Assembly (NCBI GenBank): GCA_964614915.1
Contig: CAZTNC010000011.1
Span: 280,705 to 344,704, forward strand
Direction: 5' to 3'
Source of the DNA: an uncultured Thiotrichales bacterium
Lineage (GTDB): Bacteria; Pseudomonadota; Gammaproteobacteria; UBA4575
Length of the DNA stretch: 64,000 nt
The translations under genes and the position numbers were made by a program. This document shows, piece by piece, positions 6,105 to 37,342 of this stretch; position 1 is the first letter of the stretch, and every line of letters begins with the position of its first letter. Below the pieces are notes generated by a model. That model saw nothing but the letters and a program-made list of their open reading frames with translations, ran no database searches and was not told the DNA's origin.

Positions 6105-6127
6105 CCCTCAACGATCCGCCGGCCCTC

Positions 6128-6161: not shown

Positions 6162-6206
6162 CAATTATCACTAATTACCCTGCAAACCAGGGGGTTCGAT
6201 AGAAGA

Positions 6207-8410: not shown

Positions 8411-9565
8411 TCAGAGGCCTGTCCTTGTAAAAAGACACTCCCGACCGATATTTTCAATCGATGCGCATCCGGCCAGTGACATGGCGAATTCCAGCTCGTT
8501 GCGAACCAGCTTGATGAGGTGTGCAACGCCCAGGCGACCCGCTATGGCCAGTGCATAGACTTGCGGTCGACCAATCATCACGGCATCGGCGCCCATGGCA
8601 ATGGCCTTGAACACATCGTATCCGCTTCTAATTCCACCATCCATGAGCAGCGGGAAATCATCACCGACGGCCTCGCGGATTTCGGGCAGGCAATGAATGC
8701 TGGCCGGCATCGCATCCAGGCCCCTGCCACCGTGATTAGACACCGCAATACAGTCGATGCCCATATCGACCAGACGCCTGGCATCCTGCGGATGCGTCAC
8801 CCCCTTTGCAATCGTGGGCAGCGAGGTCTGTTCAAGTATCCAGGCCAGCTCGTCCCAGCCTGGCGCCTCGCTCATCATGCCTTGGAAAATCGGGCTTTGA
8901 TCGGGCTGCAGAACGGCTTGCGGCCGGGGGGCTGAATCGGTCAGGTTTGCCGGGCGGGCATGATCGGGCAGGACAAACCCGGCTCTCAATGCACGATAGA
9001 TGGGGGCCTGAATGGGCACGTTCAGGGTCACCATGAGGGCGCCGAAGCCTGCTTCTTCTGCGCGGCCAATCAACGTCTGAGTGTGCTCACGGGAAGACTG
9101 AATGTAGAGCTGGAACCACTTCGGCGCATCGGTTTCTGCGGCGATCTCCTCCATGGGTTTGGAGGCCAGGGTACTGACGACGAGCCCTGCCTCCTGTTCT
9201 GCGGCACCTGCGGCTGTGGCGAGTTCTCCTTGTGGGTGCACCAGGGTTTGTGCGCTCACCGGTGCGAGTAGCACGGGATGACGGAATGGCTGCCCGAGCA
9301 GCGTCACCCGCGTTGAGGCTTCCCTGAGGTCCTGCAGGATTCGGCTGTGCAGCTCGATGTCTGCCAGTGCCCGAAGGTTTGCGTGCAGGGCCAGCTCGCT
9401 ACCGCTGCCGCCAGCAATTTGTGCCAGGGCCGCAGCCCCGATGAATTCGGGGGCAAGCCGCTCGTAATCAGACGGGGCTGCCAGTTCGGATGAGATCACA
9501 TCCAGAGGCTCCCGCAGAGCAGAGAATTGAGTTTTTGTGCCGCCCATAGTCGTATGGTTACACAA
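8411..9565 (-). CDS. FMN-dependent alpha-hydroxy acid dehydrogenase/oxidase (LldD / glycolate oxidase family)
   Basis: SNHGGRGLD active-site motif and a TIM-barrel FMN family pattern (PxxLAPxxxQ, GADAVMIGRP). The start may be the internal Met at 9547. Confidence 0.75.
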   Translation of the reverse strand: MCNHTTMGGTKTQFSALREPLDVISSELAAPSDYERLAPEFIGAAALAQIAGGSGSELALHANLRALADIELHSRILQDLREASTRVTLLGQPFRHPVLLAPVSAQTLVHPQGELATAAGAAEQEAGLVVSTLASKPMEEIAAETDAPKWFQLYIQSSREHTQTLIGRAEEAGFGALMVTLNVPIQAPIYRALRAGFVLPDHARPANLTDSAPRPQAVLQPDQSPIFQGMMSEAPGWDELAWILEQTSLPTIAKGVTHPQDARRLVDMGIDCIAVSNHGGRGLDAMPASIHCLPEIREAVGDDFPLLMDGGIRSGYDVFKAIAMGADAVMIGRPQVYALAIAGRLGVAHLIKLVRNELEFAMSLAGCASIENIGRECLFTRTGL

Positions 9566-9619
9566 ATTCTTCTACCCGCCTACTGACAGCCCCCAGGGCC
9601 GCCTTGGCCTCATTTCAGT

Positions 9620-10978
9620 TCAGGCTTTTTTGAAGCGCCAGCCGTACATCATGCGGCCGTAAAAGTTGAACCAGTGCCTCGCCTCGGCATCCTGGAACGG
9701 GTAGTCGGCACCGAGTTGCCTTGCCGTGGCCAGACCAGTCACGAAACAGGTCTCCTGGCTGTTGATCAGCGTGTGTGCGCCGCAGTGCCAGGTTCGTCTT
9801 TTCCCCTGGATGAAGCGAAACATCAGGATGAGCAGGGCCACCTGGCGCACATCATGCACGATGTGCTGGAACCACCACCGCTTGATGATCTTGTCCTCAT
9901 CGATACGGCTGATCGGGTTGTAGGTCACCAGGCAGGGCTTGTCCGAGCGTTTTGCCCAGGGCTGTTGGTTGTGCATGATGTAGGTGATCTCGTAATTGTC
10001 CGGGCGCACCCCGTACTGCTCGATGTGGTTACTGCGGGTATCGATCTCCCTGACCTCCGTGTCCGGCAGCACCGAGGCATCCGAATGTACGATCGTATGA
10101 TTATGCAGTTCGCTCTCGTAACGGACCGAGGAGAGTAGCCAGTTCTCCAGAAGGGTCGGTTGGTCCAGCATCATCAGCGTCTGGTTCGCATTGCACGCGA
10201 ACACCACGTCATCGTAGGTCTCTCTTTTCCCATTCTCGTCCTCGACGACAACCTCGTTCTCGCGCCGGTACACCTTACGGACCGGTCGCTCCAGGTAGAT
10301 CTTGTCCCGGAACTCCTTGGACAGGCTTTCGTAGATGCGCCGCGTGCCCTGGTCCCAGGACTTCATCGGCGTGGCGGTTTCGATGTCGAAGAACTCCAGG
10401 TAGCGGGAAAACAGCGCGGCCGGCATGTCGAACACGTTGGTGGCCATCAGGAAGTTGACGAACATAGGCTTGAGGATCTTGTAGCGGAAGTCGCCCGAGA
10501 AGCGCCCGAGGTTGAGCAGTGTGCCCATGCTGACGTAGTTGAACGGGTTGAGCGCATTGAGCAGGGCGGACCTCGAGCGGTTCAGTCGGCCGAACCACTT
10601 CAGGCGCCTCAGCAGTTTCTGGAACTTCTCGATTTCCGGCAGCAGCTGCCGACGGATGTCGGAGTCGAAATCGTGCGCGTAGACCCCGCCTTTGTACTTC
10701 ACGCTGTAGCTGAAGCGGGTGTCGATCAGGTCGATGCCGTATTGCTGCATGACCAGCACGATATGGTGGTAGGCTGAGGGGATACAGGCGGTGACGGAAA
10801 TATCGAACGGGATCGAGCCGCCGTCCTCCTGCGGCATGTCCACCGTGATGGCGTTGCCGCCGATCCGCGACTGGGCCTCGTAAATTCTGAAATCGAACCG
10901 CTCGGGGTGGTGGTGCAGCGCCCAGGCCACACCCAGTCCCGAGACTCCCCCACCGATAATTGCGACTTTCCTTGGCAT
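9620..10978 (-). CDS. FAD/NAD(P)-binding amine-oxidase-like oxidoreductase (COG2907-like)
   Basis: N-terminal Rossmann MPRKVAIIGGGVSGLGVAWAL...EAQSRIGGN. C-terminal RTWHCGAHTLINSQETCFVTGLATARQLG resembles the COG2907 C-terminus (recognised from memory, no search run). Start chosen at MPRKV (452 aa); the tracked ORF extends 59 aa upstream. Confidence 0.6.
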   Translation of the reverse strand: MPRKVAIIGGGVSGLGVAWALHHHPERFDFRIYEAQSRIGGNAITVDMPQEDGGSIPFDISVTACIPSAYHHIVLVMQQYGIDLIDTRFSYSVKYKGGVYAHDFDSDIRRQLLPEIEKFQKLLRRLKWFGRLNRSRSALLNALNPFNYVSMGTLLNLGRFSGDFRYKILKPMFVNFLMATNVFDMPAALFSRYLEFFDIETATPMKSWDQGTRRIYESLSKEFRDKIYLERPVRKVYRRENEVVVEDENGKRETYDDVVFACNANQTLMMLDQPTLLENWLLSSVRYESELHNHTIVHSDASVLPDTEVREIDTRSNHIEQYGVRPDNYEITYIMHNQQPWAKRSDKPCLVTYNPISRIDEDKIIKRWWFQHIVHDVRQVALLILMFRFIQGKRRTWHCGAHTLINSQETCFVTGLATARQLGADYPFQDAEARHWFNFYGRMMYGWRFKKA

Positions 10979-11171
10979 CCTCGCGACCTGCAAATCAAAG
11001 GCTGCTACTCTACTACGCTTGGCGGTTGCCTCCAACGAAATTCCATCACAGTTCGTGATGCCCATACAGCCCGGCCTGCCACGGTTATGAATCAGTGGCT
11101 TACACGGCCACGGTATTGCCAGTGGTGGACCGGTAGCGGTACCATACACGTGCATCTTGGAACGCAGGGCT

Positions 11172-12395
11172 ATGGTTAGGCGCCCGCCTTCACCGGATTG
11201 TGCAAAGCAGGAAAATCAGGACCTTCTAGACTCACATGCAGCACACCCAATGACTTCGGGACTGAGCACTTCCAATGGTTCCTCGTCGCCGCCGGTATTC
11301 GTGACCGGCGCAGCCGGGCATGTTGGCGCCAACCTCGTGCTGCGCCTGCTTGAGGACGGGGTCCGGGTACGTGTATTGCTCCGCCAAGGGGACAACAACG
11401 AGGCCATGGAGGGGCTGGAGGTGGAACGCATCTACGGGGACATCCGTGATCTCGATGACACCCGGCGTGCGCTTGAAGGTTGCCAGGGGGTCTATCATGT
11501 CGCCGCCATGATCTCCACTATCGAGGGTAACCATGCCTACCGCCGTAACATCTACGAATGCAACGTGCTGGGCACTCGCCATGTGCTGCAGGCTGCGCGC
11601 GAAGCCGGGGCCGGACGGGTGGTGGTGACGGGTTCTTTCAGTGCCGTCGGTTACGATCTGGACAACCCGTCTTTGCCCAGCGACGAGACGATGCAGTTCT
11701 ATCCCATGGAACGCACCATGCCCTACGAGCGCAGCAAGGCGCTCGTCGAGCACGAGTGCTGGCGTGCCGCAGCTCAGGGGCAGGATGTCATGGTCGCCAC
11801 CTGCTGTGCGGTGATCGGTGGTGCCGATTATTTCCCGTCGCGCCTTGGCAGAACCCTGTGCGACTATACCAACGGCAAGCTGCGTGCCTACGTGGACGGT
11901 GGATTTGAATTTGTTGCCGCGCGGGACATCGTGGAAGGGCACCTGCTGTGCATGGCGCACGGGCGCGCCGGGGAGAAGTACATTTTCAGCAGCGAGTACA
12001 AGACGATCTCCGAGATTCTTGACCTGTACGAGGAGGTTACCGGCATCTCGCGGCCCGGCCGGCGCATCCCCACGCACATGATGCTTGCCTTCTCGGAAGT
12101 GGCGAGCTTTTATCTCAGCCGCTTTCACCCGAGCTTCCCGCAGCGCTTCACGCCAGGTGCCATCCGCCTGCTGAAAAAGTGTCGCCACGCGGACACCGGC
12201 AAAGCAAAGCGCGAGCTTGGCTATTGCCCCACCAGTATCCTTGATGCGGTACACCAGGCGTACGCGTTTCACTATCACCGCGGTGCGATCCAGAACCCGC
12301 TTGCAAATCCCCCGCGCGAGGAGGCCCTGCGAGCGGTGCAACACCCCGTCTGCGGTGAGGACGTCTCCGTCGCCTCCGAAAGGGGCCCACTGTGA
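11172..12395 (+). CDS. NAD(P)-dependent 3-beta-HSD/extended-SDR family dehydrogenase, SdmB-like (candidate sterol C-4 decarboxylating dehydrogenase)
   Basis: VFVTGAAGHVGANLVLRLL Rossmann motif and a YERSK catalytic dyad. First gene of an overlapping operon with a Rieske oxygenase, a sterol reductase, CYP51 and OSC. Start is uncertain (TTG 11157, ATG 11172 or ATG 11250). Confidence 0.6.
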   Translation: MVRRPPSPDCAKQENQDLLDSHAAHPMTSGLSTSNGSSSPPVFVTGAAGHVGANLVLRLLEDGVRVRVLLRQGDNNEAMEGLEVERIYGDIRDLDDTRRALEGCQGVYHVAAMISTIEGNHAYRRNIYECNVLGTRHVLQAAREAGAGRVVVTGSFSAVGYDLDNPSLPSDETMQFYPMERTMPYERSKALVEHECWRAAAQGQDVMVATCCAVIGGADYFPSRLGRTLCDYTNGKLRAYVDGGFEFVAARDIVEGHLLCMAHGRAGEKYIFSSEYKTISEILDLYEEVTGISRPGRRIPTHMMLAFSEVASFYLSRFHPSFPQRFTPGAIRLLKKCRHADTGKAKRELGYCPTSILDAVHQAYAFHYHRGAIQNPLANPPREEALRAVQHPVCGEDVSVASERGPL

Positions 12396-13489
12396 GCGCG
12401 AGAGTGGATCCGCCTCCGGGCTTTGAGCAGGCCACCAACCTGCGCCAGCAGGTGCGCGCTACCGGGCTCGACCCGGATTACTGGTACGCCGTTGAGGAAG
12501 TGCGAAACATCAAGCCGGGCACCGTGGTCGAGGTCATCTTCTGGAAACGCTCGATTGCCCTGTATCGCTCGAACGACGGTTCGTTTCATGCGCTCGAGAA
12601 CCGCTGTGCGCATCGCCAGATCAAGCTTTCTTTGGGCGATGTGCAGGGCTGCAAGCTGGTATGCGCCTACCATGGCTGGGAGTATGATCAGGAGGGCCGC
12701 CGGGTCGACATCGTTCATGATGCCAGCAAGGGCGGTCTTCCGAAGCCCTCCATCCGGGCTTATCCCGTGAAGGTCCGTTACGGCATGGTGTGGCTGTTTC
12801 CCGGCAATCCCGAGCGTGCCGAGGAGCACCGAATCCCGGACATTCCCGAACTGGAAGGACCGGAACGCTGGGCATGTGTGCCGCTGAGCTTCACTTGGTC
12901 CGCCCACCACTCCATGATTATCGACAACGTCAGCGACTTCACACATGCTCATCTGCACCGCCGTTACCGCCCCTTTGAAGGCGCAACGCTGACCCGTTGC
13001 GAGACCATTGGCGACAACGTGCACCTGGCCTATGACACGAAGGTGGGGCGCGGGCGCATTTCAGGGCGGTTTGTCGATCACCGGCAGCTGGACACCAATC
13101 ACATGGACCTGTGCTTTGAATACCCCTACCAGTGGTCCAACACCGATGATGCGATCAAGCACTGGTTGTTCGTCTTGCCGATCGATGAGCGCACCACTCG
13201 GGTGTTCTTCATGTTCTATTTCAAGTCTCTGAAGATTCCCCTGCTGCCGGTCCATATCCCGCGTTTTGCCATGACCACGGTGTTGAAGCTGTCGAACCGC
13301 ATGCTGATCGCACCCCTGTTGGATCAGGACCGCTATGCGGTCGAAGCCGAGCAGCTGGGCTACGAGAAACACTGGGATGCAGCGCCCATCGAGTTCAATC
13401 CGGTGGTCAAGGCCTTCCAGAACGTGACCGTGCGCAAGTGGCAGGAATACCTGGCGCGCGAGGCGGAAAACGGCCGTGCCGTTGCCTGA
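12392..13489 (+). CDS. Rieske [2Fe-2S] non-heme iron oxygenase, SdmA-like (candidate sterol C-4 methyl oxidase)
   Basis: Rieske motifs CAHRQ and CAYHGW. Mononuclear iron motif D-F-T-H-A-H-L-H. GTG start overlaps the upstream stop (GTGA). It sits in the sterol operon. Confidence 0.65.
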   Translation: MSARVDPPPGFEQATNLRQQVRATGLDPDYWYAVEEVRNIKPGTVVEVIFWKRSIALYRSNDGSFHALENRCAHRQIKLSLGDVQGCKLVCAYHGWEYDQEGRRVDIVHDASKGGLPKPSIRAYPVKVRYGMVWLFPGNPERAEEHRIPDIPELEGPERWACVPLSFTWSAHHSMIIDNVSDFTHAHLHRRYRPFEGATLTRCETIGDNVHLAYDTKVGRGRISGRFVDHRQLDTNHMDLCFEYPYQWSNTDDAIKHWLFVLPIDERTTRVFFMFYFKSLKIPLLPVHIPRFAMTTVLKLSNRMLIAPLLDQDRYAVEAEQLGYEKHWDAAPIEFNPVVKAFQNVTVRKWQEYLAREAENGRAVA

Positions 13490-14576
13490 ACTCGCGGGCG
13501 AACCACTTCTGCTGTCGGGGGCAACCCTGCTTGAGTCCGCGGCCATGCTGGCGGTGTTTATCGGGGCCCTGTTCGCAGGCTCGATCCTGTTGCCCGGACA
13601 TCGCATCACCGGACCGCAGGTGGCAGGTCAGGTACGTACATATAAGCTCAACGGCTTCCTGCTGTTCTTGCTGACTGTGATCGCGGCAGGCACCGCCCAG
13701 CTCCTGGGCTGGTTTTCGCTCGCTGCGCTCTATACTCACTTTGGTGCCCTGTTCGTAGCCGCCAACGTATTCGCATTCGCCCTGTCCGCCTGGTTGTACT
13801 GGCGAGGGGTGAAGGTCCGGGAGGAACGCCCGGGGCTGTGGCGGGGCTTTTTCTTCGGCGTCGAACTCAACCCGAGTTGGCTCGGGGTGGACCTGAAGCT
13901 GTTCAGCTACCGACCCTCCCTGATCGGACTGGCCCTGCTCAACCTGTCCTTTGCCGTCGTGCAGTACGAAACCTATGGCGAACTGACCCTGGCCATGGTG
14001 CTCTACCAGGCCTTCACGTTCCTGTATGTACTCAACTACTTCCAGTTCGAACACGGCATGGTCCACACCTGGGACATCGTCAGTGAGCGTTTCGGCTGGA
14101 TGCTGGTCTGGGGCGACTATGTGCTGGTGCCGTTTTTCTACTGCCTCGCCGGCTGGTGGCTGGTTCATGCCACGGAGACGCTGTCAATGCTGGGTGCCGC
14201 AGCCATCGTCTCGCTGTTCGCGTTCGGCTTCTGGCTGTTTCGCGGCGCCAATGAGCAAAAGCACCGCTTCAAGCGTGACCCGGACGTGAAAATATGGGGG
14301 CGACCCGCCGAGACTTTGGATGGGCGCTTGCTGGTATCCGGCTTCTGGGGGATCGGGCGACATCTTAACTATACAGGCGAGATTTGCATCTACCTCTCGT
14401 TTACCCTGACTACCGGGTTCGCATCCTGGTTGCCGTACCTGCTACCGGCCTGGCTCGCAAGCCTGCTGTGGCACCGCTCCCGACGGGATGAACGCCGCTG
14501 CCGTGCCAAGTACGGAGAACTGTGGGGACGCTACAAGAAGCGGGTGCGCTATTCCATGTTGCCGTTCGTCTATTAG
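13476..14576 (+). CDS. Sterol reductase, ERG4/ERG24 family (likely delta-14 sterol reductase)
   Basis: Polytopic membrane protein. Family signatures GVELNPS (LNPR-like), LLVSGFWGIGRHLNYTGE and C-terminal HRSRRDERRCRAKYGELWGRY. GTG start at 13476; an alternative ATG lies at 13545. Confidence 0.8.
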   Translation: MPLPELAGEPLLLSGATLLESAAMLAVFIGALFAGSILLPGHRITGPQVAGQVRTYKLNGFLLFLLTVIAAGTAQLLGWFSLAALYTHFGALFVAANVFAFALSAWLYWRGVKVREERPGLWRGFFFGVELNPSWLGVDLKLFSYRPSLIGLALLNLSFAVVQYETYGELTLAMVLYQAFTFLYVLNYFQFEHGMVHTWDIVSERFGWMLVWGDYVLVPFFYCLAGWWLVHATETLSMLGAAAIVSLFAFGFWLFRGANEQKHRFKRDPDVKIWGRPAETLDGRLLVSGFWGIGRHLNYTGEICIYLSFTLTTGFASWLPYLLPAWLASLLWHRSRRDERRCRAKYGELWGRYKKRVRYSMLPFVY

Positions 14577-14584
14577 GAGCCGAA

Positions 14585-15991
14585 ATGGTGCAGCGATCAG
14601 ACAGGGTGACTACGGTGGGTTCTGCGAACCCTTCACCGCCAGACAGGGCCGTGCCCGAGATGGCCGGCGGCTGGCCGCTGATCGGCCACCTGCCGGAGTT
14701 TCTCAAGGATCCGGTCTCAATGCTGGCGCGCGGCTGGGAGGAACAGGGTGAGCTTTTCCAGTTTCGCATCGGCCCGCGCAAATTTGTGCTCTTCTCCGGG
14801 CCCGAGGCCCACGATTTCTATTTCAGAACGCCCGAGGAGCAGCTGAATGCCAAGGCCGTCTACCAGTTCACGGTGCCCATCTTCGGGCGTGGCGTGGCGT
14901 ACGACATTTCCCCGGAATTGATGGCCGAGCAGTTGGGGTTTCTGTACCCGGCGCTTCGTGAATCCGCGATGCGCAGATTTGCCCGTATCATGTTTGCGGA
15001 GACCAGCCGCTTTGCCGATGCCCTCGGCGAATCCGGAGAAATCGATCTGCCGCACGCGATGAACGAACTCACCGTCAAGATCGCAAGTCGCTGCCTGATT
15101 GGAGAAGAAGTCAGGGCACAGGTGGACACGGGGTTTGCCGAGGCCTATCACGATCTGCAAAACGGCATCAATACCTTGGGGTTCTTCCTCCCCAGGCTGC
15201 CGACCCCGGCCCATCGCACCCGCGACCGGGCCCGGCAAAAAGTGGCCGAGATCTTCAGCCGGGTCATGACGGAACGCCGGCGCACCGGAGCGCAGCCCGA
15301 CGATTTCATGCAAACGCTCATGCACGCCCGGTACAAGGATGGCCGCGCACTGAGCGACGACGAGATTACCGGCATCCTGCTGACGGTGCTGTTTGCGGGA
15401 CAGCACACGAGTGCCGTGCTCGCGACCTGGACGTTGCTAGAGCTTTTAAGAACGCCCACCTACCTGGAGCGCATCCGGGACGAGATGCAGGAGGTCTACC
15501 GCGAGAGTGCGCAGGTGAGTCTTGCGAGTCTCAAGCAGCAGGTGGCCTTGGAGCACGCCGTGCGTGAAGGGGAGCGACTGCATCCGCCATTGATCATGCT
15601 GATCCGCAAGGTACTCAAGCCCTTGCAATACAAGGGCTACAGCGTGCCGGAAGGCACCCTGGCTGTGGTGTCACCGGCGGTCTCTCATCGCTTGCCGCAC
15701 GTCTTTGCCGACCCGGAACGTTTTGCTCCAGAGCGTTTTGACCCGCCAGCCAGTGAGGACAAGCAGCACCACTTCGCCCTGATCGGTTTTGGCGGCGGCA
15801 AACACCGGTGCATGGGCAAGCATTTTGCGGTCATGCAACTGAAAGCGATCTGGACCGTGCTGCTCGATCGCTTCGACTTTTATCTCGACTCTGAATTTCC
15901 CGCCCCGAATTACGGCAGCTGGGTGACCGGTCCGGTGGAGCCCTGCCGGCTGCGCTACCGGCGACGCCCAAGCACGGGGCTGCTCCAGTGA
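14585..15991 (+). CDS. cyp51: Sterol 14-alpha demethylase cytochrome P450 (CYP51)
   Basis: Heme-thiolate FGGGKHRCMG. CYP51-specific I-helix AGQHTS. B' helix YQFTVPIFGRGVAYD. AGGAG ribosome-binding site 6 nt upstream of ATG 14585. No C-terminal ferredoxin domain. Confidence 0.85.
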   Translation: MVQRSDRVTTVGSANPSPPDRAVPEMAGGWPLIGHLPEFLKDPVSMLARGWEEQGELFQFRIGPRKFVLFSGPEAHDFYFRTPEEQLNAKAVYQFTVPIFGRGVAYDISPELMAEQLGFLYPALRESAMRRFARIMFAETSRFADALGESGEIDLPHAMNELTVKIASRCLIGEEVRAQVDTGFAEAYHDLQNGINTLGFFLPRLPTPAHRTRDRARQKVAEIFSRVMTERRRTGAQPDDFMQTLMHARYKDGRALSDDEITGILLTVLFAGQHTSAVLATWTLLELLRTPTYLERIRDEMQEVYRESAQVSLASLKQQVALEHAVREGERLHPPLIMLIRKVLKPLQYKGYSVPEGTLAVVSPAVSHRLPHVFADPERFAPERFDPPASEDKQHHFALIGFGGGKHRCMGKHFAVMQLKAIWTVLLDRFDFYLDSEFPAPNYGSWVTGPVEPCRLRYRRRPSTGLLQ

Positions 15992-17340
15992 ACGGTGCCT
16001 CGGCCCGGCGTTACGATGTAGCCATCGTCGGTGCGGGTCCGGTCGGCAGCCTGTGCGCACTGGCCCATGCACGAAAGGGCGCTCGGGTGATCCTGCTCGA
16101 AGCCAATCCCAAGGCTTCCCTGCGTCTAGCCGGCGAATGGCTGCATCCTCCCGCCGTGCGCATCTTGCGCGATCTTGAGGTTGATCTGGGCTTGCCGCTC
16201 AGCGATCCCAGGGGCAAGGGTTTTGCCGTGTTCCCGGAAGACGGTACGGAGCCGATCGTCTTTCCCTATCCGCAAGGCGCCCGGGGGCTGACCTGCGAGC
16301 ATGCCTCACTGGTCTCGAACCTGCGCGAAGCGGTCGGCTGTCACCCCGAGATCGAGTTCCTTGTTCATGCCCGCGTGCGCGAGGTCGAGGACGGCCGCCT
16401 CACGTTCAGCTACAACGGCACGGACGAAACGGTGATGGCGCCGCGCATCGTCGGTGCTGACGGCCAGGCATCGATCGTGCGTCAATCGCTGGGACTGTCG
16501 AAAAACCCGGTGATCTGCTCCCAGACGGTGGGTGTGGTTCTGAGCGGGGTGACGTTGCCGCTGGAAGGTTACGGGCATGTGTTGCTCGGTGGTCCGGGCC
16601 CCGTACTCATCTACCGTCTCGACGAGCAGCATGTGCGGTTGATCGTCGATGTCCCGCTGGAGCGCACCACGCCCCGGGACCGCATCGGGTTCCTGCTGGA
16701 TTCGTATACCGACCTGCTGCCGGGACCCTTTCGCACGGCATTTGTCGATGCATTGCGTGCCGGCCAATTCCATGTTGCCGCCAACAAGCTGAGACCACGG
16801 CTCACCTACGGGAATGCACAGCGTGTTCTGATCGGCGATGCGGCAGGACACTACCACCCAATGACGGCTATGGGAATGACTTTTGGTTTCGGTGATGCGG
16901 TGGCGCTCGCCGAGAGCGATGACTTTCGCGACTTTACCCACCAGCGCATCCGCGCTACCCGGGGTCCGGCGTTTCTCGCCATGGGACTCTATGAGGTGTT
17001 TGCCGATCACCGTGCAGAGGCAGTCGCCTTCCGACACACGATTTACCGAAGTGCCCGCACCAATACGGCGTTCAGGGACCAGACCGTGCGATTACTCGCT
17101 TGTGAAGACACTTCATCAATCCGCATGGGGATTGCCTTTGTCACGACCGTGGCGCGTGCCATCGTCGAGCAAATCCCGCGATCCTTCAACCACCTCGCAT
17201 GGCGACGAGCACGCGATGTGCTTCGAGCGATTACGATCCGGATCAGCTGGTTTTTGCGAAGCATACTGCAACTCTCCAGGGCGAGAAGCGGCAAAGGGGA
17301 ACTGGACTCCGAATCGTGGAACACGCTGGCTGGCGTGCTT
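15988..17340 (+). other. Squalene epoxidase domain of the fusion protein (approx. aa 1-450)
   Basis: Rossmann FAD motif at aa 10-25. GD-AAGHYHPMT motif at aa 283-300. Confidence 0.7.
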
Positions 17341-19428
17341 CAGATCTCCATGCCTGCCAAAGCCCGAGACCCTCAGCCCAGTCGCCCGAAGGAAGTGCCC
17401 TCCCTCGATGCCACGGCTGCACTGCAGCATGCAGTTACGCGCTTGCTGGAGCTGCAGGGCAAGGAGGGTGGCTGGGAAGGCGAGATGGTCTGGTGTCCCA
17501 TGCTGACGGCACAGTACGTATTGTTGCATTACATCATCGGCAGACCCTTGGAACCTACCCGGCGCAGGCTCGTGCTGCGCTCGTTCGAACATACCCGTCT
17601 TGAAGGGGGCACATGGGGGATGCACGAGCACTCCCGGCCCCACCTGTTCGTCACCACCCTGGTCTACGTAGCGGCGAGACTGCTCGGCATCGAACGCGAG
17701 GATCCGTTGCTCGTGCCAGCGAGACAATTCCTGCAGGCCGAGGGGGTGCTCGCCATTCCGAGCTGGGGGAAGTTCTGGCTGGCCCTTCTCAATCTATACG
17801 ACTGGCGCGGTGTCAATGCCGTGCTGCCGGAGTTGTGGAGCCTGCCGCGCTGGATTGCGCTGCATCCCTCAAACTGGTACTGCCACACCCGGCTGATCTA
17901 CATGGCCATGTCGGTGATGTATTCGCATCGGTTCCAGGCCCCGATAACTCCCCTGATCACGTCCTTGCGTGAGGAGTTGTACCCGCAGGGGTTTGACTCT
18001 GTCAATTTCTACCAGGGCCGCAACCGCCTGCGAGACGCCGACCTTTTCTCACGGCCTAGCATATGGCTTCGGATCGGCTATCGTCTTGCGCAGGTATTCG
18101 AGCGCTACCACGGGCAACGCTTTCGCAATCGGTGTGTGGAAGCGATCCTGCATCAGATTCGGTGGGAGTTGCAGACCACCAGCCATACGAGTATTTCTCC
18201 GGTCAGCGGTATCCTGAACATGCTTGCCCTGTGGCTGCGCGATCCCGACGACCCGGATCTGCACCAGGCGCTCGACCAGCTGGAAGGTTGGATCTGGGAA
18301 GACGAGGCGATGGGGGCACGTGTCACAGGTGCAAGAAGCGCCTCGTGGGATACCGGGTTTGCATTGCAGGCGCTGGCCTTGATGAGTGAAGTTGAAGGGG
18401 TAGGGGATGCCCGCATGGCGGGTGCCGAGTTTCTGTACCGACAGCAGATCACCACCAGCTTCGAAGGCTATCGCGAGGCCTACCGAAACGACCCCAAGGG
18501 CGGCTGGTGTTTTGCTGGCGGATGGCATGGCTGGCCGGTATCCGACTGTACGGCCGAGGCTGTGCTTGGACTGATCGCCACCCATCGCGAGACGACAGAC
18601 CAAACCGTGCTTCGCGATGCGATTCGGTTCATGTTGCGCAGTCAAAACCGTGACGGTGGCTTTGGCAGCTACGAATCCCAACGTTCCGTTCTCGGGCTCG
18701 AGTGGCTGAATCCTGCCGAGATGTTCGGTGAATCGATGACCGAGCATTCCTACATTGAATGCACCGCATCGTGTCTTGCGGCGTTCGCCGCCTGCCGGGA
18801 GCACTTCCCGAAACTCGCTGATCGGCAATTGATGGAGGCGATCTTGCGGGCGGATAACTGGATTCGCTGGTCCCAGGCCAGTGACGGGTCCTGGCGTGGC
18901 GTGTGGGGTGTTCAGTTCATTTATGGCACGCTGTTCGGGATCCGGGGCCTGTTGGCCACCGGTGCTGGTACCGGTGATCCGGCATTGCGCCAGGCTTGCC
19001 AGTGGTTGCTGGAGCGCCAGCGCGATGACGGCGGGTGGGGTGAACACCACAGCGGCTGTCTGAGTGGCCAATACATCGCGCATGAACAAAGTCAGGTCAT
19101 CCAGACCGCGTGGGCGCTGATTGCGCTCCTTGAGGCGGGGGATTCGAGCTGGAACGCGATTTCCAAGGGTGCTAGGTTTTTGCTCGATGCCCAGCAAGAA
19201 GACGGGTCTTGGCCCAGGCAAGACATGGCCGGGGTCTTTTTCCGCACGGCCCTGCTGGATTATGTTCTTTATCGGCAGTATTTCCCGATGCATGCGCTCG
19301 GACTCTACGAGCAGCGGCGCAGAGCCCGCCAGGATCTGACGAATCCCGTCATTCACAACGTCGCTGCAAGACCGTCTGAACCTGGAGATGCTTCAAAGTC
19401 GGCGGAGCGTTTGCGCTCCTCAGCCTAG
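15988..19428 (+). CDS. Fused squalene monooxygenase (squalene epoxidase) - oxidosqualene cyclase, 1146 aa
   Basis: N-terminal 450 aa carry FAD-binding YDVAIVGAGPVGS and the epoxidase motif IGDAAGHYHPMTAMGMTFGFGD. The C-terminal 690 aa align with lanosterol/cycloartenol synthases (AIPSWGKFWLALLNLYDWRG, catalytic VSDCTAEA, several QW motifs such as LLERQRDDGGWGE). It is one uninterrupted frame. The GTG start overlaps the cyp51 stop. Confidence 0.85.
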   Translation: MNGASARRYDVAIVGAGPVGSLCALAHARKGARVILLEANPKASLRLAGEWLHPPAVRILRDLEVDLGLPLSDPRGKGFAVFPEDGTEPIVFPYPQGARGLTCEHASLVSNLREAVGCHPEIEFLVHARVREVEDGRLTFSYNGTDETVMAPRIVGADGQASIVRQSLGLSKNPVICSQTVGVVLSGVTLPLEGYGHVLLGGPGPVLIYRLDEQHVRLIVDVPLERTTPRDRIGFLLDSYTDLLPGPFRTAFVDALRAGQFHVAANKLRPRLTYGNAQRVLIGDAAGHYHPMTAMGMTFGFGDAVALAESDDFRDFTHQRIRATRGPAFLAMGLYEVFADHRAEAVAFRHTIYRSARTNTAFRDQTVRLLACEDTSSIRMGIAFVTTVARAIVEQIPRSFNHLAWRRARDVLRAITIRISWFLRSILQLSRARSGKGELDSESWNTLAGVLQISMPAKARDPQPSRPKEVPSLDATAALQHAVTRLLELQGKEGGWEGEMVWCPMLTAQYVLLHYIIGRPLEPTRRRLVLRSFEHTRLEGGTWGMHEHSRPHLFVTTLVYVAARLLGIEREDPLLVPARQFLQAEGVLAIPSWGKFWLALLNLYDWRGVNAVLPELWSLPRWIALHPSNWYCHTRLIYMAMSVMYSHRFQAPITPLITSLREELYPQGFDSVNFYQGRNRLRDADLFSRPSIWLRIGYRLAQVFERYHGQRFRNRCVEAILHQIRWELQTTSHTSISPVSGILNMLALWLRDPDDPDLHQALDQLEGWIWEDEAMGARVTGARSASWDTGFALQALALMSEVEGVGDARMAGAEFLYRQQITTSFEGYREAYRNDPKGGWCFAGGWHGWPVSDCTAEAVLGLIATHRETTDQTVLRDAIRFMLRSQNRDGGFGSYESQRSVLGLEWLNPAEMFGESMTEHSYIECTASCLAAFAACREHFPKLADRQLMEAILRADNWIRWSQASDGSWRGVWGVQFIYGTLFGIRGLLATGAGTGDPALRQACQWLLERQRDDGGWGEHHSGCLSGQYIAHEQSQVIQTAWALIALLEAGDSSWNAISKGARFLLDAQQEDGSWPRQDMAGVFFRTALLDYVLYRQYFPMHALGLYEQRRRARQDLTNPVIHNVAARPSEPGDASKSAERLRSSA
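17350..19428 (+). other. Oxidosqualene cyclase domain of the fusion protein (approx. aa 455-1146)
   Basis: DCTAE catalytic aspartate motif at aa 853-857 (nt 18544-18558). QW repeats. The region aligns with human LSS from about residue 60 onward. Confidence 0.75.
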
Positions 19429-19468
19429 TCCCGAATAAGGAAGTGCGCGGGCACAGCGCCCGGCACGT

Positions 19469-20503
19469 TCAGTCTCTCGAAGGCAGGGGTTTTCGGGCCA
19501 GGAAGTAATACATCGGGGTAAAGATGCCGGTCTCACCCCCCTCGACCAGCGCATCCGCTCCCTCGTTCAAGATCGTACTGACCGCCCGGGTGCCTTCCGG
19601 GACCAGCTTCAGGGGCTCCAGCACCCTCAATACGATGTTCGTCAGGGCACGACCCATCGGCGTGCGAGGGATACTCGAAAGCGTCAGGTCGCGGCCCTGT
19701 AGAGCGCGGTACCAGGGAGTTTCCGGGTCCGATTCAAGGGCGAGGTCACGGGCTTCCAGAAGTTCGAATCCGGCTTCACGAAAGGCCGCACACACTTCGG
19801 TGGTGCGCGCGATATCCGGCAAGGCGTCTCCGACCTCGATATCTTTCTTGATTCTCAGGTGCTCTGCATTCTGCGGATCGAAATCATCGGTGAGGCACCA
19901 CTCGTAGCCGGCAAAGCATGCCCCCGGGCGCAGGATGCGAAAGACCTCCCGGAACGCCTCGGTCTTGTTGGGCGCGTGAGGCATGGACTCGATGGCGAAG
20001 GCGCCATCATAGCTGTCGTCCTCTTCGGGGATTTGCATGTAGTTGCCATGAATAAAACGGCACTGCGACTGGATATCCTGGGTATGCACTTTCGCGCGCT
20101 CAATCTGGTAGGCGTTATTGTTGATCCCCACAAAGCTAGCCCCGGAATAACGGGCCAGGGTGTGCATCGGGCCGCCCACGCCGCAGCCCACATCGAGCAC
20201 CTGCATCAACGGTTTCAGGTCCAGTTGGTCCGCCAGAAAATGCTCATGTCTGAGCAGCGACGCCTTGAAGCTTTCCCCCTTGCGTCGCGGAGCGAAATGA
20301 AAGGATCGCCCCCAACCGAACTCGTAAAAGTCCGTCACCAGGTCGTAGTAGTGGTTGACGAGCGACTGGTAGTGCTCTTTTCTACGCTCCGGGGAGTCGG
20401 TTTCGTGGAGTCCGGCATATTGATCGACTACCGACTTCACGTGCTCCGGGGCAAGATCCGCGAGTGAGCGAGAACTTGATCTTTTGACGGGTTCGCGGGT
20501 CAT
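19469..20503 (-). CDS. Sterol 24-C-methyltransferase (ERG6/SMT family)
   Basis: Diagnostic SMT region I YEFGWGRSFHF. SAM motif LDVGCGVGGP. Region II IESMPHAP. C-terminal sterol-MT-like domain. 344 aa. Convergent with the sterol operon. Confidence 0.8.
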   Translation of the reverse strand: MTREPVKRSSSRSLADLAPEHVKSVVDQYAGLHETDSPERRKEHYQSLVNHYYDLVTDFYEFGWGRSFHFAPRRKGESFKASLLRHEHFLADQLDLKPLMQVLDVGCGVGGPMHTLARYSGASFVGINNNAYQIERAKVHTQDIQSQCRFIHGNYMQIPEEDDSYDGAFAIESMPHAPNKTEAFREVFRILRPGACFAGYEWCLTDDFDPQNAEHLRIKKDIEVGDALPDIARTTEVCAAFREAGFELLEARDLALESDPETPWYRALQGRDLTLSSIPRTPMGRALTNIVLRVLEPLKLVPEGTRAVSTILNEGADALVEGGETGIFTPMYYFLARKPLPSRD

Positions 20504-20569
20504 CGGATGATTATGCCGGGTTCGTGCGGCTTCTCCAAATCGATGCTCAACATTATTTGACGGATTTGA

Positions 20570-20643: not shown

Positions 20644-20667
20644 GGACGGTTTGTCTCAAGAAGGATT

Positions 20668-37289: not shown

Positions 37290-37342
37290 CGCACTTCGAG
37301 ATCACGGGCCTGTTTTGACAGTTGTGGGTGCCACCGCCGCCT

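What the first reader, a model, noticed from the sequence alone, without database searches (positions are those of the whole stretch)
9620..20503. Compact bacterial sterol-biosynthesis gene cluster in a gammaproteobacterium
Five overlapping or near-contiguous genes at 11172-19428 carry hallmark motifs of sterol enzymes. They encode an SdmB-like 3-beta-HSD-family dehydrogenase, an SdmA-like Rieske oxygenase, an ERG4/ERG24 sterol reductase, CYP51 (AGQHTS, FGGGKHRCMG), and squalene epoxidase plus oxidosqualene cyclase (DCTAE, QW motifs). A sterol 24-C-methyltransferase is convergent downstream and a flavin oxidoreductase divergent upstream. Together this predicts squalene to oxidosqualene to lanosterol or cycloartenol, then 14-demethylation, delta-14 reduction, C-4 demethylation by the bacterial SdmAB route and C-24 methylation. 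Bacterial sterol synthesis is rare, and having the pathway in one locus is unusual. A 24-alkylated sterol from a bacterium also matters for biomarker interpretation.
Basis: partly seen in the sequence, partly recalled or inferred. Interest (0 to 1): 0.9.

Follow-up and report, generated by a model that had tools for sequence, protein, structure and literature searches.

The report
Sponge-symbiont bacterial sterol gene cluster
This is a real, intact bacterial gene cluster for making C-24-methylated sterols from squalene, but it is one more copy of a cluster type already published from sponge-associated bacteria, so only one extra flavoprotein gene beside it is a new lead.

Summary
Window 11250-19428 (+) is a tightly packed operon: sdmB, sdmA, an ERG24-type sterol reductase, CYP51, and one 1146-aa ORF fusing squalene epoxidase to oxidosqualene cyclase. 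A sterol C-24 methyltransferase is convergent (19469-20503, -). A flavoprotein is divergent (9620-10978, -). HMM, PDB and motif checks support every assignment. All seven genes are under purifying selection (dN/dS 0.04-0.17).

The functional reading is supported, but the rarity premise is outdated. The same architecture, including the fused epoxidase/cyclase and the opposite-strand methyltransferase, was published for sponge-symbiont MAGs (Kelly 2022; Brown 2023). My scan found relatives of the fusion in 323 GTDB species across many phyla. The nearest are Gammaproteobacteria MAGs at 88-92% identity. Methyltransferase genes on three contigs whose SMTs Brown tested in vitro are 73-75% identical.

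One lead is new. The divergent flavoprotein resembles LkcE and the 2b9w protein. It is embedded in sterol gene sets in at least four arrangements, including distant clusters, and none of the five papers I term-searched mentions it. It may be an unrecognised sterol-modifying enzyme.

No squalene synthase or redox partners lie in the 64 kb, and no lipid data exist. Verdict: new member of a known kind, modest interest.

The parts
9620..10978 (-). LkcE/2b9w-like FAD flavoprotein ('AmOx'), 452 aa from the Met directly before the GxGxxG motif. The longest ORF runs on to 11155. It is divergent from sdmB.
   Evidence: Pfam Amino_oxidase 66 bits. Most homologues are 452 aa. It matches LkcE 6f7l over the full length at 80 bits. 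A profile of 31 homologues hits LkcE at 94 bits and 2b9w at 34 bits. It sits inside sterol gene sets in 17 related GTDB loci (by ORF family; 22 by tblastn), in at least 4 arrangements, and also in L120, L108 and L161. dN/dS is 0.07-0.11.
10979..11249 (.). Divergent intergenic region between AmOx and sdmB, a presumed bidirectional control region.
   Evidence: Sequence read. One sigma-70-like match lies at 11116-11145 (+), but the number of matches is not above the shuffled expectation.
11250..12395 (+). sdmB-type SDR (C-4 decarboxylase / 3-ketoreductase). The likely start is ATG 11250.
   Evidence: NCBIfam SdmB NF052578 is the best hit at 299 bits, against HpnA at 227 bits. Pfam 3Beta_HSD/Epimerase. 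Translation. 72-94% identical in about 65 related loci.
12392..13489 (+). sdmA-type Rieske oxygenase (C-4 methyl oxidase).
   Evidence: NCBIfam 4beta-methylsterol monooxygenase NF052579 at 411 bits, next-best family 35 bits. The Rieske motif CAHRQ...CAYHGW and the Fe motif DNVSDFTHAHLH are visible.
13476..14576 (+). ERG4/ERG24-family sterol reductase, a presumed delta-14 reductase.
   Evidence: Pfam ERG4_ERG24 257 bits, covering profile positions 85-432 only. The best PDB hit is the delta(14)-sterol reductase 4quv at 257 bits.
14585..15991 (+). CYP51 sterol 14-alpha-demethylase, with no ferredoxin domain. The longest ORF starts at GTG 14522.
   Evidence: The top 56 PDB sequences are all CYP51. 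The best is 6mcw at 364 bits, from memory the Methylococcus capsulatus enzyme. The alignment stops before that chain's C-terminal ~100-residue extension. AGQHTS and FGGGKHRCMG are present.
15988..19428 (+). Single 1146-aa ORF. It holds a squalene epoxidase domain (about residues 1-370, 15988-17097), a hydrophobic/linker stretch (about 371-477) and an oxidosqualene cyclase domain (about residues 478-1109, 17419-19314).
   Evidence: Pfam SE, FAD_binding_3 and SQHop_cyclase_N/C. osq_cycl scores 741 bits against hopene cyclase at 264 bits. Human SQLE 6c6n scores 92 bits. Human lanosterol synthase 1w6k scores 434 bits against SHC at 185 bits, and DCTAE is conserved. More than 120 90%-clusters are all about 1113-1174 aa and carry both domains.
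19469..20503 (-). Sterol C-24 methyltransferase (SMT/ERG6 type), convergent with the operon.
   Evidence: Pfam Sterol_MT_C 85 bits. The SMT signature regions YEFGWGRSFHF, LDVGCGVGGP and YEW are visible. It is 73-75% identical to SMT genes on contigs whose SMTs were tested in vitro: LXNI01004480.1, LXNJ01014139.1 and the T. swinhoei Chromatiales contig.

Best explanation
The locus is a horizontally mobile sterol-biosynthesis cassette of the kind found in many sponge-associated bacteria. Here it sits in the chromosome of an uncultured gammaproteobacterium whose closest relatives have chromosomes of about 1.9-2.0 Mb.

Inferred from family membership, the pathway runs as follows:
1. The fused enzyme epoxidises squalene (FAD, O2) and cyclises 2,3-oxidosqualene to a protosterol. 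Lanosterol is most likely, but cycloartenol or parkeol are not excluded.
2. CYP51 removes the 14-alpha-methyl group.
3. The ERG24-type reductase saturates the resulting delta-14 bond.
4. SdmA (Rieske oxygenase) and SdmB (SDR) remove one or both C-4 methyl groups by the bacterial route.
5. The SMT adds at least one methyl carbon at C-24.

No delta-8/7 isomerase, C-5 desaturase or delta-7 or delta-24 reductase homologue is present. The default product is therefore a delta-8, 24-methyl(ene) sterol that is fecosterol-like or its 4-methyl form, unless the neighbouring flavoprotein modifies it.

Shown here: gene content, order, intactness, purifying selection, and orthology to published clusters. 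Inferred: every catalytic step, the cyclase product, the number of C-4 demethylations and of C-24 methylations, and any role of the flavoprotein.
For: PDB relatives are CYP51 at 364 bits, lanosterol synthase at 434 bits with the catalytic Asp in DCTAE, squalene monooxygenase and delta-14 sterol reductase at 257 bits.

The translationally coupled operon layout is seen. NG86 dN/dS is 0.04-0.17 for all seven genes against four relatives, like RpoD at 0.08.

The same order and spacing occurs in about 65 of 80 loci from Gammaproteobacteria, Binatia, Nitrospirales, Alphaproteobacteria, Ca. Porisulfidus and others.

L035 is the very contig (444,506 bp) of Brown's T. swinhoei Chromatiales cluster. The window's proteins are 63-77% identical to it.

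Brown et al. showed that 8 of 10 sponge-symbiont SMTs methylate desmosterol in vitro. Kelly et al. showed purifying selection and HGT of these clusters. Calothrix SdmAB removes both C-4 methyls, and SdmB of the related clusters is closer to Calothrix SdmB (52-54%) than to M. capsulatus SdmB (43-45%).
Against: No enzyme of this organism has been assayed, and no sterol has been shown in any such uncultured symbiont.

NCBIfam equivalog or subfamily cut-offs are not reached: SdmB 299/600, SdmA 411/600, osq_cycl 741/851.

No squalene synthase (or HpnCDE), ferredoxin or ferredoxin reductase lies in the 64 kb.

The residues at human OSC positions T381/C449/V453 are A/H/V, a mixed pattern that does not predict the product.

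The ERG24 homologue lacks about 84 N-terminal profile positions.
Confidence: 0.85

Rival explanations
1. The cassette is used mainly to remodel sterols or squalene taken from the sponge host, for example by demethylating or C-24-methylating host intermediates, rather than for de novo synthesis.
For: No squalene synthase is in the window. Closest relatives have small genomes of 1.85-1.97 Mb. Brown et al. discuss shared host/symbiont sterol synthesis and a Chlamydiae SMT in a MAG that lacks the other sterol-biosynthesis homologues.
Against: An epoxidase-cyclase fusion only makes sense with squalene as the input. Related MAGs do carry ERG9/FDFT1 elsewhere in the genome (for the T. swinhoei MAG; for FDFT1 enrichment). 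The full early pathway is kept under strong purifying selection.
Confidence: 0.1
2. The cyclase makes a non-sterol triterpenoid such as an arborane-type or other pentacyclic product, and the downstream enzymes tailor that scaffold instead of a sterol.
For: A bacterial OSC that makes arborane triterpenols is on record (Banta et al. 2017, seen only as a title in a reference list). The product-determining residues here are an atypical A/H/V.
Against: CYP51, a delta-14 reductase, SdmAB and an SMT with a Sterol_MT_C domain are all sterol-specific partners. From memory, the Banta 2017 arborinol producer lacks this enzyme set.
Confidence: 0.04
3. The divergent flavoprotein 9620-10978 is only a neighbour, for example an amine or amide oxidase of unrelated metabolism that is common in sponge symbionts, and has no role in sterol chemistry.
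For: In Ca. Porisulfidus it stands alone among unrelated genes. Only 22 of 80 fusion-centred loci carry it within 10 kb. Its closest solved relative, LkcE, acts on a polyketide amide.
Against: It is embedded in sterol gene sets in at least four arrangements across several phyla. In a divergent cluster with an unfused OSC it heads an AmOx-Rieske-DHCR24-like-SMT operon. It lies near SMT and ERG4/24 on a non-sponge contig. It sits between a KshA-like Rieske gene and a GPP34-P450 gene in a Bacteroidetes MAG. A single-copy gene would fall by chance within a 20-kb window of a 2-5 Mb genome less than 1% of the time.
Confidence: 0.4
4. The locus is sponge (eukaryotic) DNA or a chimeric assembly rather than a bacterial operon.
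For: SE, OSC, CYP51, ERG24 and SMT are classically eukaryotic families.
Against: The genes are overlapping and intron-free. C-4 demethylation is by the bacterial SdmAB route. The flanks are PDH, PhoX, a tRNA, rpoD, dnaG, aroB and aroK. The same junctions are assembled independently in many MAGs, including closed long-read chromosomes. Whokaryote called the published contigs prokaryotic.
Confidence: 0.01

Closest known systems
Clusters of steroid genes (CSGs) of Ircinia sponge symbiont MAGs (Kelly et al. 2022, Microbiome, PMC9531527)
   Same: The core is ERG24-CYP51-LSS. It is preceded on the same strand by 'dihydroflavonol-4-reductase' (= sdmB) and a 'hypothetical protein' (= sdmA), and followed on the opposite strand by SMT. 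Gammaproteobacteria is among the host classes. MAGs named in that paper's style (jk18x.., p16x..; for example L006, JAJDYY010000006) are among my nearest hits at 92%.
   Different: In the passages I retrieved, that paper annotates the big gene only as LSS/ERG7, did not annotate SdmAB, and does not mention the flavoprotein. This exact genome is not one of the GTDB representatives; the best is 92%.
Sterol clusters with functional SMTs from sponge metagenomes and MAGs (Brown et al. 2023, Nat Commun, PMC10070321, Fig. 3 and Suppl. Data 1)
   Same: The cluster is sdmB-sdmA-ERG24-ERG11-[ERG1 and ERG7 on one gene ID]-SMT in the A. aerophoba contig, the T. swinhoei Chromatiales MAG and the Nitrospira MAG, and the methods mention 'fused SMO/OSC homologs'. 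The T. swinhoei contig is my L035. The window proteins are 63-77% identical to it, and the SMT is 73-75% identical to SMT genes on contigs with tested SMTs.
   Different: The window has one SMT, and no DHCR24 or desaturase-like accessory gene. Its SMT has not been assayed, so the number of methylations is unknown. The propylating A. aerophoba contig itself was not retrieved.
Methylococcus capsulatus sterol pathway (SdmAB, CYP51; Lee et al. 2018/2023)
   Same: It uses bacterial SdmA/SdmB for C-4 demethylation. Its CYP51 is, from memory, the best PDB match at 364 bits.
   Different: From my own knowledge, M. capsulatus has separate SQMO and OSC genes that are not in one operon with the rest, a CYP51 fused to ferredoxin, and no SMT. 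It removes only one C-4 methyl. Here SE and OSC are fused, CYP51 has no ferredoxin domain, and an SMT is present.
Calothrix sp. NIES-4105 21-kb sterol gene cluster (Lee et al. 2023, PMC10202945)
   Same: It is a single bacterial locus with oxidosqualene production, cyclisation, C-14 demethylation and SdmAB. Its SdmAB removes both C-4 methyls. SdmB of the sponge-type clusters is 52-54% identical to it.
   Different: Calothrix also has a C-8 isomerase homologue and further genes. A fusion and an SMT are not reported in the text I read.
Eukaryotic ergosterol/cholesterol early pathway (ERG1, ERG7, ERG11, ERG24, ERG6)
   Same: The enzyme families and reaction order for epoxidation, cyclisation, 14-demethylation, delta-14 reduction and C-24 methylation are the same.
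   Different: C-4 demethylation uses SdmAB rather than ERG25/26/27. The genes form an operon. The late steps (ERG2, ERG3, ERG5, ERG4 or DHCR7/24) are absent.

Membership tests
Sponge-symbiont sterol cassette (CSG; Kelly 2022 / Brown 2023) | Gene order sdmB-sdmA-ERG24-CYP51-OSC on one strand, with SMT (or FDFT1) at the 3' end, on the opposite strand in Kelly's description | tested here: met
   Window coordinates match the published description and about 65 of 80 related loci.
Sponge-symbiont sterol cassette (CSG; Kelly 2022 / Brown 2023) | Squalene monooxygenase fused to the cyclase in one polypeptide | tested here: met
   One 1146-aa ORF holds SE and SQHop_cyclase domains. The 120 best 90%-clusters listed share the architecture. 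Brown reports one gene ID for ERG1 and ERG7.
Sponge-symbiont sterol cassette (CSG; Kelly 2022 / Brown 2023) | Host is a sponge-associated bacterium | tested here: inconclusive
   The source of the window is not given. A sup-like PKS lies nearby. The exact SMT also occurs in run SRR16090826, whose origin I could not look up.
Oxidosqualene cyclase (as opposed to squalene-hopene cyclase) | Catalytic Asp in a DCTAE motif, and higher similarity to OSC than to SHC | tested here: met
   DCTAE lies at residue 853. osq_cycl scores 741 bits against hopene cyclase at 264 bits. 1w6k scores 434 bits against 1gsz at 185 bits. The score is below the TIGR03463 cut-off of 851.
Lanosterol synthase versus cycloartenol synthase | Residues at human T381/C449/V453. 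From memory, T/C(Q)/V gives lanosterol and Y/H/I gives cycloartenol. | tested here: inconclusive
   The alignment to 1w6k gives A/H/V. This mixed pattern does not predict the product.
CYP51 sterol 14-alpha-demethylase | CYP51 signature in helix I (AGQHTS) and the heme-Cys loop, with nearest relatives all CYP51 | tested here: met
   The 56 best PDB sequences are all CYP51. Activity and redox partner were not tested.
SdmA/SdmB bacterial C-4 demethylase pair | A Rieske [2Fe-2S] plus mononuclear Fe oxygenase adjacent to an SDR, with best HMM matches to SdmA and SdmB | tested here: met
   The genes are adjacent and overlapping. NF052579 at 411 bits and NF052578 at 299 bits are the top hits.
SdmA/SdmB bacterial C-4 demethylase pair | Score above NCBIfam's equivalog cut-off (600 bits; from its name, the model was built on the methanotroph proteins) | tested here: not met
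   299 and 411 bits. The proteins are homologues but not equivalogs of the M. capsulatus enzymes. Related clusters are closer to Calothrix SdmB.
Delta-14 sterol reductase (ERG24/TM7SF2) | ERG4_ERG24 fold with the C-terminal NADPH-binding motifs, and position next to CYP51 | tested here: met
   Pfam 257 bits. 4quv scores 257 bits. Specificity for delta-14 rather than delta-7 or delta-24(28) cannot be tested with these tools.
Sterol C-24 methyltransferase (ERG6/SMT) | SAM-MT core plus the Sterol_MT_C domain and the conserved YEFGWG region | tested here: met
   Sterol_MT_C scores 85 bits against a cut-off of 21.7. It is 73-75% identical to SMT genes on contigs whose SMTs were tested in vitro.
Sterol C-24 methyltransferase (ERG6/SMT) | Number of successive methylations (methyl, ethyl or isopropyl) | not testable with these tools
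   Brown et al. state that no predictive residues are known.
Complete de novo sterol pathway | A squalene source (FDFT1 or HpnCDE) and electron donors for the P450 and Rieske enzymes | tested here: not met
   None lies in the 64-kb window. The rest of the genome could not be scanned.
LkcE / PAI-type flavin amine-oxidase-fold enzymes (for the divergent flavoprotein) | Full-length similarity with an N-terminal FAD Rossmann motif | tested here: met
   GGGVSGLG lies at the N-terminus. LkcE scores 80-94 bits and 2b9w scores 34 bits, both over the full length. Substrate and chemistry were not tested.

The most novel reading that the evidence does not exclude
The divergent flavoprotein (9620-10978) may be an unrecognised bacterial sterol-modifying enzyme. 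Its only full-length solved relatives are LkcE and the protein of 2b9w. From memory, 2b9w is the FAD-dependent fatty-acid C=C isomerase of Propionibacterium acnes. This suggests a flavin-dependent double-bond isomerase, desaturase or saturase acting on the sterol nucleus (for example the missing delta-8 to delta-7 step) or on the side chain.

It would belong to a wider accessory set seen in related clusters: a GPP34-P450 fusion, a 240-275-aa membrane protein, a KshA-like Rieske oxygenase, and an MMPL/TPR/LolA-like export set. None of the five papers I term-searched mentions an amine-oxidase-type gene.
Probability: 0.45. Interest if true: 0.55.

Novelty: new member of a known kind. Interest (0 to 1): 0.3.

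Why it matters
The cluster adds one more genome, from a lineage whose closest relatives have small chromosomes of about 1.9-2.0 Mb, to the evidence that bacteria associated with sponges can make C-24-alkylated sterols. This bears on reading 24-alkyl steranes as eukaryote or sponge biomarkers. That argument and the cluster type are already published (Kelly 2022; Brown 2023), so the window does not change the picture.

The useful new lead is the conserved flavoprotein. If it acts on sterols, it would fill one of the late steps for which these bacteria have no canonical enzyme. There is a precedent: the geranylgeranyl-reductase homologue recently shown to be the myxobacterial C-24 reductase (Lee and Welander 2025).

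Tried and rejected
1. Genomic island integrated at the adjacent tRNA. There is no tRNA-derived direct repeat in 6000-21000 and no integrase. The rpoD-tRNA arrangement is native and shared with close relatives. Rejected.

2. Promoter and terminator scan of 9400-20800. The counts equal the shuffled expectation, so it is uninformative.

3. AlphaFold2 model of the flavoprotein from 31 homologues at 81-94% identity. Mean pLDDT was 47.9, which is unusable, so no fold search was run.

4. Exact look-up of the fusion protein's contig. Nothing is on record. The exact SMT was found only on a 2.7-kb Logan contig, so the source sample stays unidentified.

5. The metagenome scan did not return the propylating A. 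aerophoba contig JGIcombinedJ30088_10000835. It returned only another A. aerophoba contig (L081, 78%). Identity to the propylating SMTs is therefore unknown.

6. Predicting the cyclase product from three residues gave a mixed A/H/V pattern.

7. The FMN-dependent dehydrogenase 8411-9565 as a cluster member. It is present only in the closest relatives and missing in L001 and in other phyla. Rejected.

8. The flavoprotein as HpnE or a geranylgeranyl-reductase-type C-24 reductase. Only the N-terminal Rossmann region matches HpnE at 22 bits, and no GGR family appears among its ten listed NCBIfam hits. Rejected.

9. The flavoprotein as electron donor for CYP51 or SdmA. It has a single FAD motif and no NAD(P)H or Fe-S domain. 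Unlikely.

10. The 274-aa membrane protein of relatives as an EBP homologue. There is only a non-significant EXPERA hit at E = 7.

Full report
**Observation.** Pfam gives the following:
- 11157-12395 (+): NAD-dependent epimerase/3-beta-HSD-type SDR (119 and 73 bits).
- 12392-13489 (+): Rieske plus VanA_C oxygenase (71 and 54 bits).
- 13476-14576 (+): ERG4_ERG24 (257 bits).
- 14522-15991 (+): cytochrome P450 (214 bits).
- 15988-19428 (+): one ORF with the squalene epoxidase family (78 bits), FAD_binding_3 and both squalene/oxidosqualene cyclase halves (176 and 180 bits).
- 19469-20503 (-): a methyltransferase with the Sterol_MT_C domain (85 bits).
- 9620-11155 (-): a flavin amine-oxidase-fold protein (66 bits).

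NCBIfam's best hits are SdmB (299 bits), SdmA or 4-beta-methylsterol monooxygenase (411 bits), and 2,3-oxidosqualene cyclase (741 bits, against 264 for hopene cyclase). The quoted motifs are all in the translations. These are AGQHTS and FGGGKHRCMG, DCTAE at residue 853, two strict and two core QW motifs, and the SMT regions YEFGWGRSFHF, LDVGCGVGGP and YEW. Stop and start codons overlap or nearly abut at every junction, so the five plus-strand genes form an operon.

**Checks against solved structures.** The 56 best PDB sequences for the P450 are all CYP51. The top hit is 6mcw, from memory the Methylococcus capsulatus enzyme (364 bits). The alignment ends before that chain's C-terminal ~100-residue extension, so this CYP51 has no fused ferredoxin. 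The cyclase half aligns end to end with human lanosterol synthase (434 bits; squalene-hopene cyclase only 185) and keeps the catalytic Asp. At human positions T381/C449/V453 it has A/H/V, a mixed pattern that does not say whether lanosterol, parkeol or cycloartenol is made. The N-terminal half matches human squalene monooxygenase (92 bits). The reductase matches the delta-14 sterol reductase 4quv (257 bits). No sterol-pathway SMT stood out among the PDB hits.

**Are the genes functional?** I computed Nei-Gojobori dN/dS between the window and four relatives (L001, L002, L006, L003). All seven genes, including the flavoprotein, give 0.04-0.17. This is the same range as RpoD (0.08) and PhoX (0.10-0.15). 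The cluster is intact and under purifying selection.

**Whose genome?** The flanks are ordinary chromosomal genes. Upstream lie pyruvate dehydrogenase E1/E2, alanine dehydrogenase, PhoX and an FMN-dependent dehydrogenase. Downstream lie a tRNA(CAU), rpoD, dnaG, a dGTPase-like HD protein, aroB and aroK.

Exact copies of four of the seven cluster proteins (SMT, SE-OSC, ERG24, SdmA), and of the flanking PhoX, are on an NCBI contig of 349,091 bp. Near-identical ones carry the labels 'MAG: Gammaproteobacteria bacterium' or 'Pseudomonadota bacterium'. A scan of one genome per GTDB species found 323 species that encode a relative of the fusion protein. The closest are unnamed Gammaproteobacteria MAGs: L001 and L006 at 92%, L002 and L053 at 88%. 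Two of these sit on chromosome-level contigs of 1.85-1.97 Mb, and they share the flanking PhoX, RpoD and DnaG.

The other hits come from many groups: Ca. Poriferihabitaceae, Ca. Porisulfidus, Ca. Rariloculaceae, Binatia, Nitrospirales, Alphaproteobacteria, Acidimicrobiales, Arenicellales, Bryobacterales, Vicinamibacterales, Longimicrobiales and Thermodesulfobacteriota. Several record titles name sponges or sponge-symbiont lineages (Spongia_Bin9, 'lac_sponge' TsSOB, Ca. Poriferihabitaceae, Ca. Porisulfidus). From memory, the APA_, RHO, CAR, SB06xx and jk18x/p16x series also come from sponge-microbiome studies. The window itself carries a 3213-aa KS-AT-DH-MT-ER-KR-ACP-KS synthase with a hydrolase and a PPTase. 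From memory, this resembles the 'sponge symbiont ubiquitous' (sup) PKS. A sponge-associated gammaproteobacterium is therefore the most likely source, although the sample is not identified.

**Comparison with what is known.** The architecture is published.
- Kelly et al. 2022 (PMC9531527) describe 'clusters of steroid genes' in 115 of 537 Ircinia-sponge MAGs from 11 classes and 10 phyla, including Gammaproteobacteria. The core is ERG24-CYP51-LSS. It is usually preceded on the same strand by 'dihydroflavonol-4-reductase' and a hypothetical protein, and followed on the opposite strand by SMT or FDFT1. They report purifying selection and horizontal transfer. These two 5' genes are evidently sdmB and sdmA.
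- Brown et al. 2023 (PMC10070321) list sdmB, sdmA, ERG24, ERG11, ERG1 and ERG7 and at least one SMT for five sponge- or coral-reef-derived contigs or MAGs (A. aerophoba, two P. ficiformis contigs, the T. swinhoei Chromatiales MAG and a Nitrospira MAG). Where gene IDs are given (A. aerophoba, T. swinhoei, Nitrospira), ERG1 and ERG7 share one gene ID and the numbering is consecutive. The S. foetidus contig lists only the ERG homologues. Their methods mention 'fused SMO/OSC homologs'. They show that 8 of 10 sponge-symbiont SMTs methylate desmosterol in vitro, and that two of them go on to the 24-isopropyl side chain.
- Their T. swinhoei contig (444,506 bp) is my locus L035. The window's proteins are 63-77% identical to it.
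- The window's SMT is 75% and 73% identical to SMT genes on the S. foetidus and P. ficiformis contigs whose SMTs they tested (LXNI01004480.1, LXNJ01014139.1).

In my own table the order and spacing sdmB-sdmA-ERG24-CYP51-fusion is the same in about 65 of 80 loci, and an SMT is present in about 55. Its premise that a one-locus bacterial sterol pathway is unusual no longer holds for this ecological group, and the biomarker argument has already been made.

**Most likely mechanism.** By homology, the steps are these:
1. The fusion epoxidises squalene and cyclises oxidosqualene.
2. CYP51 removes the 14-alpha-methyl group.
3. The ERG24-type enzyme reduces the delta-14 bond.
4. SdmA and SdmB remove C-4 methyl groups.
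5. The SMT methylates C-24.

Whether one or both C-4 methyls go is open. M. capsulatus SdmAB removes one, Calothrix SdmAB removes both, and E. salina needs a third protein. SdmB of the related published clusters is closer to the Calothrix protein (52-54%) than to the methanotroph protein (43-45%). The window's SdmA and SdmB also score below NCBIfam's methanotroph-based equivalog cut-offs.

No homologue of a C-8 isomerase, C-5 desaturase, or delta-7 or delta-24 reductase lies in the 64 kb. Nor does a squalene synthase or any P450/Rieske electron donor. The default product is a delta-8, 24-methyl(ene) sterol. The early and redox steps must be encoded elsewhere, as ERG9 is in the T. swinhoei MAG.

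**The one unreported element.** The divergent flavoprotein most likely starts at the Met before its GGGVSGLG motif (9620-10978, 452 aa), because most homologues have that length. It has no named family in NCBIfam. A profile of 31 homologues matches only two PDB families over the full length. One is the lankacidin amide oxidase/cyclase LkcE (94 bits). The other is 2b9w (34 bits, E = 8e-8). From memory, 2b9w is the FAD-dependent polyunsaturated-fatty-acid double-bond isomerase of Propionibacterium acnes.

The protein is very conserved. It is 81-96% identical in more than 110 90%-clusters, including MAGs labelled Rhodospirillaceae and Bacteroidetes. This exceeds the conservation of the fusion protein (67-76%). 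It lies within 10 kb of the fusion in 22 of 80 loci. It is always embedded among sterol genes, in at least four arrangements:
- Divergent from sdmB in Gammaproteobacteria. The same pairing holds in Binatia and Thermodesulfobacteriota, where sdmBA have moved together with it.
- Between a 240-275-aa membrane protein and a GPP34-P450 fusion downstream of the cyclase, in Nitrospirales.
- Between the cyclase and SMT (L041; directly after the cyclase in L050).
- Next to an MMPL transporter (L014).

The link holds beyond the sponge cassette.
- On contig JADMIO010957421.1 (L120) the cyclase is unfused and the sterol proteins are only 43-61% identical to the window's. There the flavoprotein (72%) again sits divergent from sdmB. 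It heads an operon with a KshA-like Rieske oxygenase, a FAD_binding_4 (DHCR24-like) protein and an SMT.
- On a 380-kb contig of unidentified origin, not one of the sponge-metagenome records (L108), a 55% homologue lies near an SMT, a full-length ERG4/ERG24 reductase and a KshA-like Rieske gene.
- In a Bacteroidetes MAG it sits between a KshA-like Rieske gene and a GPP34-P450 gene, with no cyclase within 8 kb.
- One counter-example exists: in Ca. Porisulfidus it stands alone among unrelated genes.

Term searches of the main text of five papers turned up no amine-oxidase-type gene. The papers are Brown 2023, Kelly 2022, Lee 2023, Lee and Welander 2025, and Hoshino and Gaucher 2021. The supplements of Lee 2023 were also searched. 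I did not query Brown's or Kelly's text for that term, though the Brown passages I read do not mention one. There is a precedent for a non-canonical flavoprotein in bacterial sterol synthesis: a geranylgeranyl-reductase homologue is the myxobacterial C-24 reductase. I therefore put about 0.45 on this protein being a sterol-modifying enzyme. The chemistry of its relatives points to a flavin-dependent double-bond isomerase, desaturase or saturase. That is inference only.

**Things that led nowhere.**
- There is no tRNA-derived repeat or integrase to mark an island.
- Promoter and terminator matches are at chance level.
- The AlphaFold model of the flavoprotein was unusable (pLDDT 48), because the available homologues are too similar to each other.
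- The propylating A. aerophoba contig was not retrieved.

**Verdict.** The feature is real, correctly interpreted and functional-looking, but it is a further member of a cluster type described in 2022-2023. A specialist would not be surprised. The flavoprotein association is a modest new lead that can be tested directly by co-expression.

Noticed in passing
window 27648-39061: There is a 3213-aa single-module type I PKS/FAS-like protein (KS-AT-DH-MT-ER-KR-ACP-KS). It is followed on the other strand by an alpha/beta hydrolase (37343-38239) and a 4'-phosphopantetheinyl transferase (38324-39061). From memory, this resembles the 'sponge symbiont ubiquitous' (sup) PKS linked to mid-chain methyl-branched fatty acids, another sponge lipid biomarker. 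I ran one term search, which listed Della Sala et al. 2013 (PMC3908369, on swf/sup mono-modular PKSs) among others, but I did not read it or compare sequences.
   Followed up: partly
window 62741-63925 (+): This ORF has an N-terminal half matching FA_desaturase (residues 9-213) and a C-terminal part matching an ISL3-family DDE transposase (residues 267-385). It may be a desaturase gene disrupted by, or read through into, an IS remnant. It is not the FA_desaturase-like family seen in relatives' sterol loci.
   Followed up: no
window 20570-20643 (-): ARAGORN and Rfam call this a tRNA-Met (CAT). It lies directly after rpoD. Its anticodon arm reads CTCATAATC, like E. coli ileX, so from memory it may be the lysidine-modified tRNA-Ile2 rather than a Met tRNA.
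   Followed up: no
related loci, e.g. L025 13382-15403, L161 9549-11576, L038 15544-17580: A protein of about 675 aa fuses an N-terminal GPP34 (Golgi phosphoprotein 3-like, lipid-binding) domain to a cytochrome P450. It recurs in 24 of 80 sterol loci and next to the flavoprotein in a Bacteroidetes MAG. It is absent from the window. It may be a second sterol-tailoring P450.
   Followed up: partly
related loci, e.g. L045 14607-15428, L003 16321-17043, L074 13375-14109: A 240-275-aa multi-pass membrane protein with no Pfam family recurs in 20 of 80 loci directly after the cyclase or SMT, often beside the flavoprotein. The only similarity is a non-significant EXPERA/EBP hit at E = 7. It is a candidate for a missing sterol step such as C-8 isomerisation, and is absent from the window.
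   Followed up: partly
related loci, e.g. L069 6447-8747, L038 1765-2736, L062 13427-14365: An MMPL/RND transporter with a sterol-sensing-domain hit occurs in 16 loci, a TPR protein in 8 and a LolA-like protein in 6, all flanking sterol clusters in Nitrospirales and others. From memory, this resembles the BstABC sterol-transport idea in Methylococcus. None is in the window.
   Followed up: no
L120 7391-9908; L108 7533-8606; L161 6872-7975: KshA-like Rieske oxygenases (Rieske plus KshA_C) are distinct from SdmA, at 24% identity in L161. They sit next to the flavoprotein, to a DHCR24-like gene or to an SMT in divergent clusters. They may be sterol desaturases or hydroxylases.
   Followed up: partly
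window 6207-8099 versus 9620-20503, compared with L001 and L006: Synonymous divergence of the sterol genes (dS 0.32-0.51) is lower than that of the flanking PhoX (0.74-0.80) and similar to or lower than RpoD (0.49). This could mean more recent exchange of the cluster among close relatives, or codon-usage constraint. It was not tested.
   Followed up: no
window 13476-14576 (+): The ERG24 homologue is 366 aa and covers only positions 85-432 of the Pfam model and residues 79-427 of the 4quv reductase. It therefore lacks the first transmembrane part. Most cluster mates have the same 366-368-aa length, so this is a natural short form and not a truncation.
   Followed up: partly
window 59399-60460 (-): This is a chorismatase of the FkbO/Hyg5 type (112 bits). 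Such enzymes supply hydroxybenzoate starter units for secondary metabolites. Its relation to the PKS 22 kb away is unknown.
   Followed up: no
L108 15444-18617 (+): In this high-GC contig the flavoprotein homologue lies at the end of a 1057-aa ORF, after about 590 in-frame upstream residues with no Pfam hit. This may be a real N-terminal extension or only a long upstream ORF artefact.
   Followed up: no
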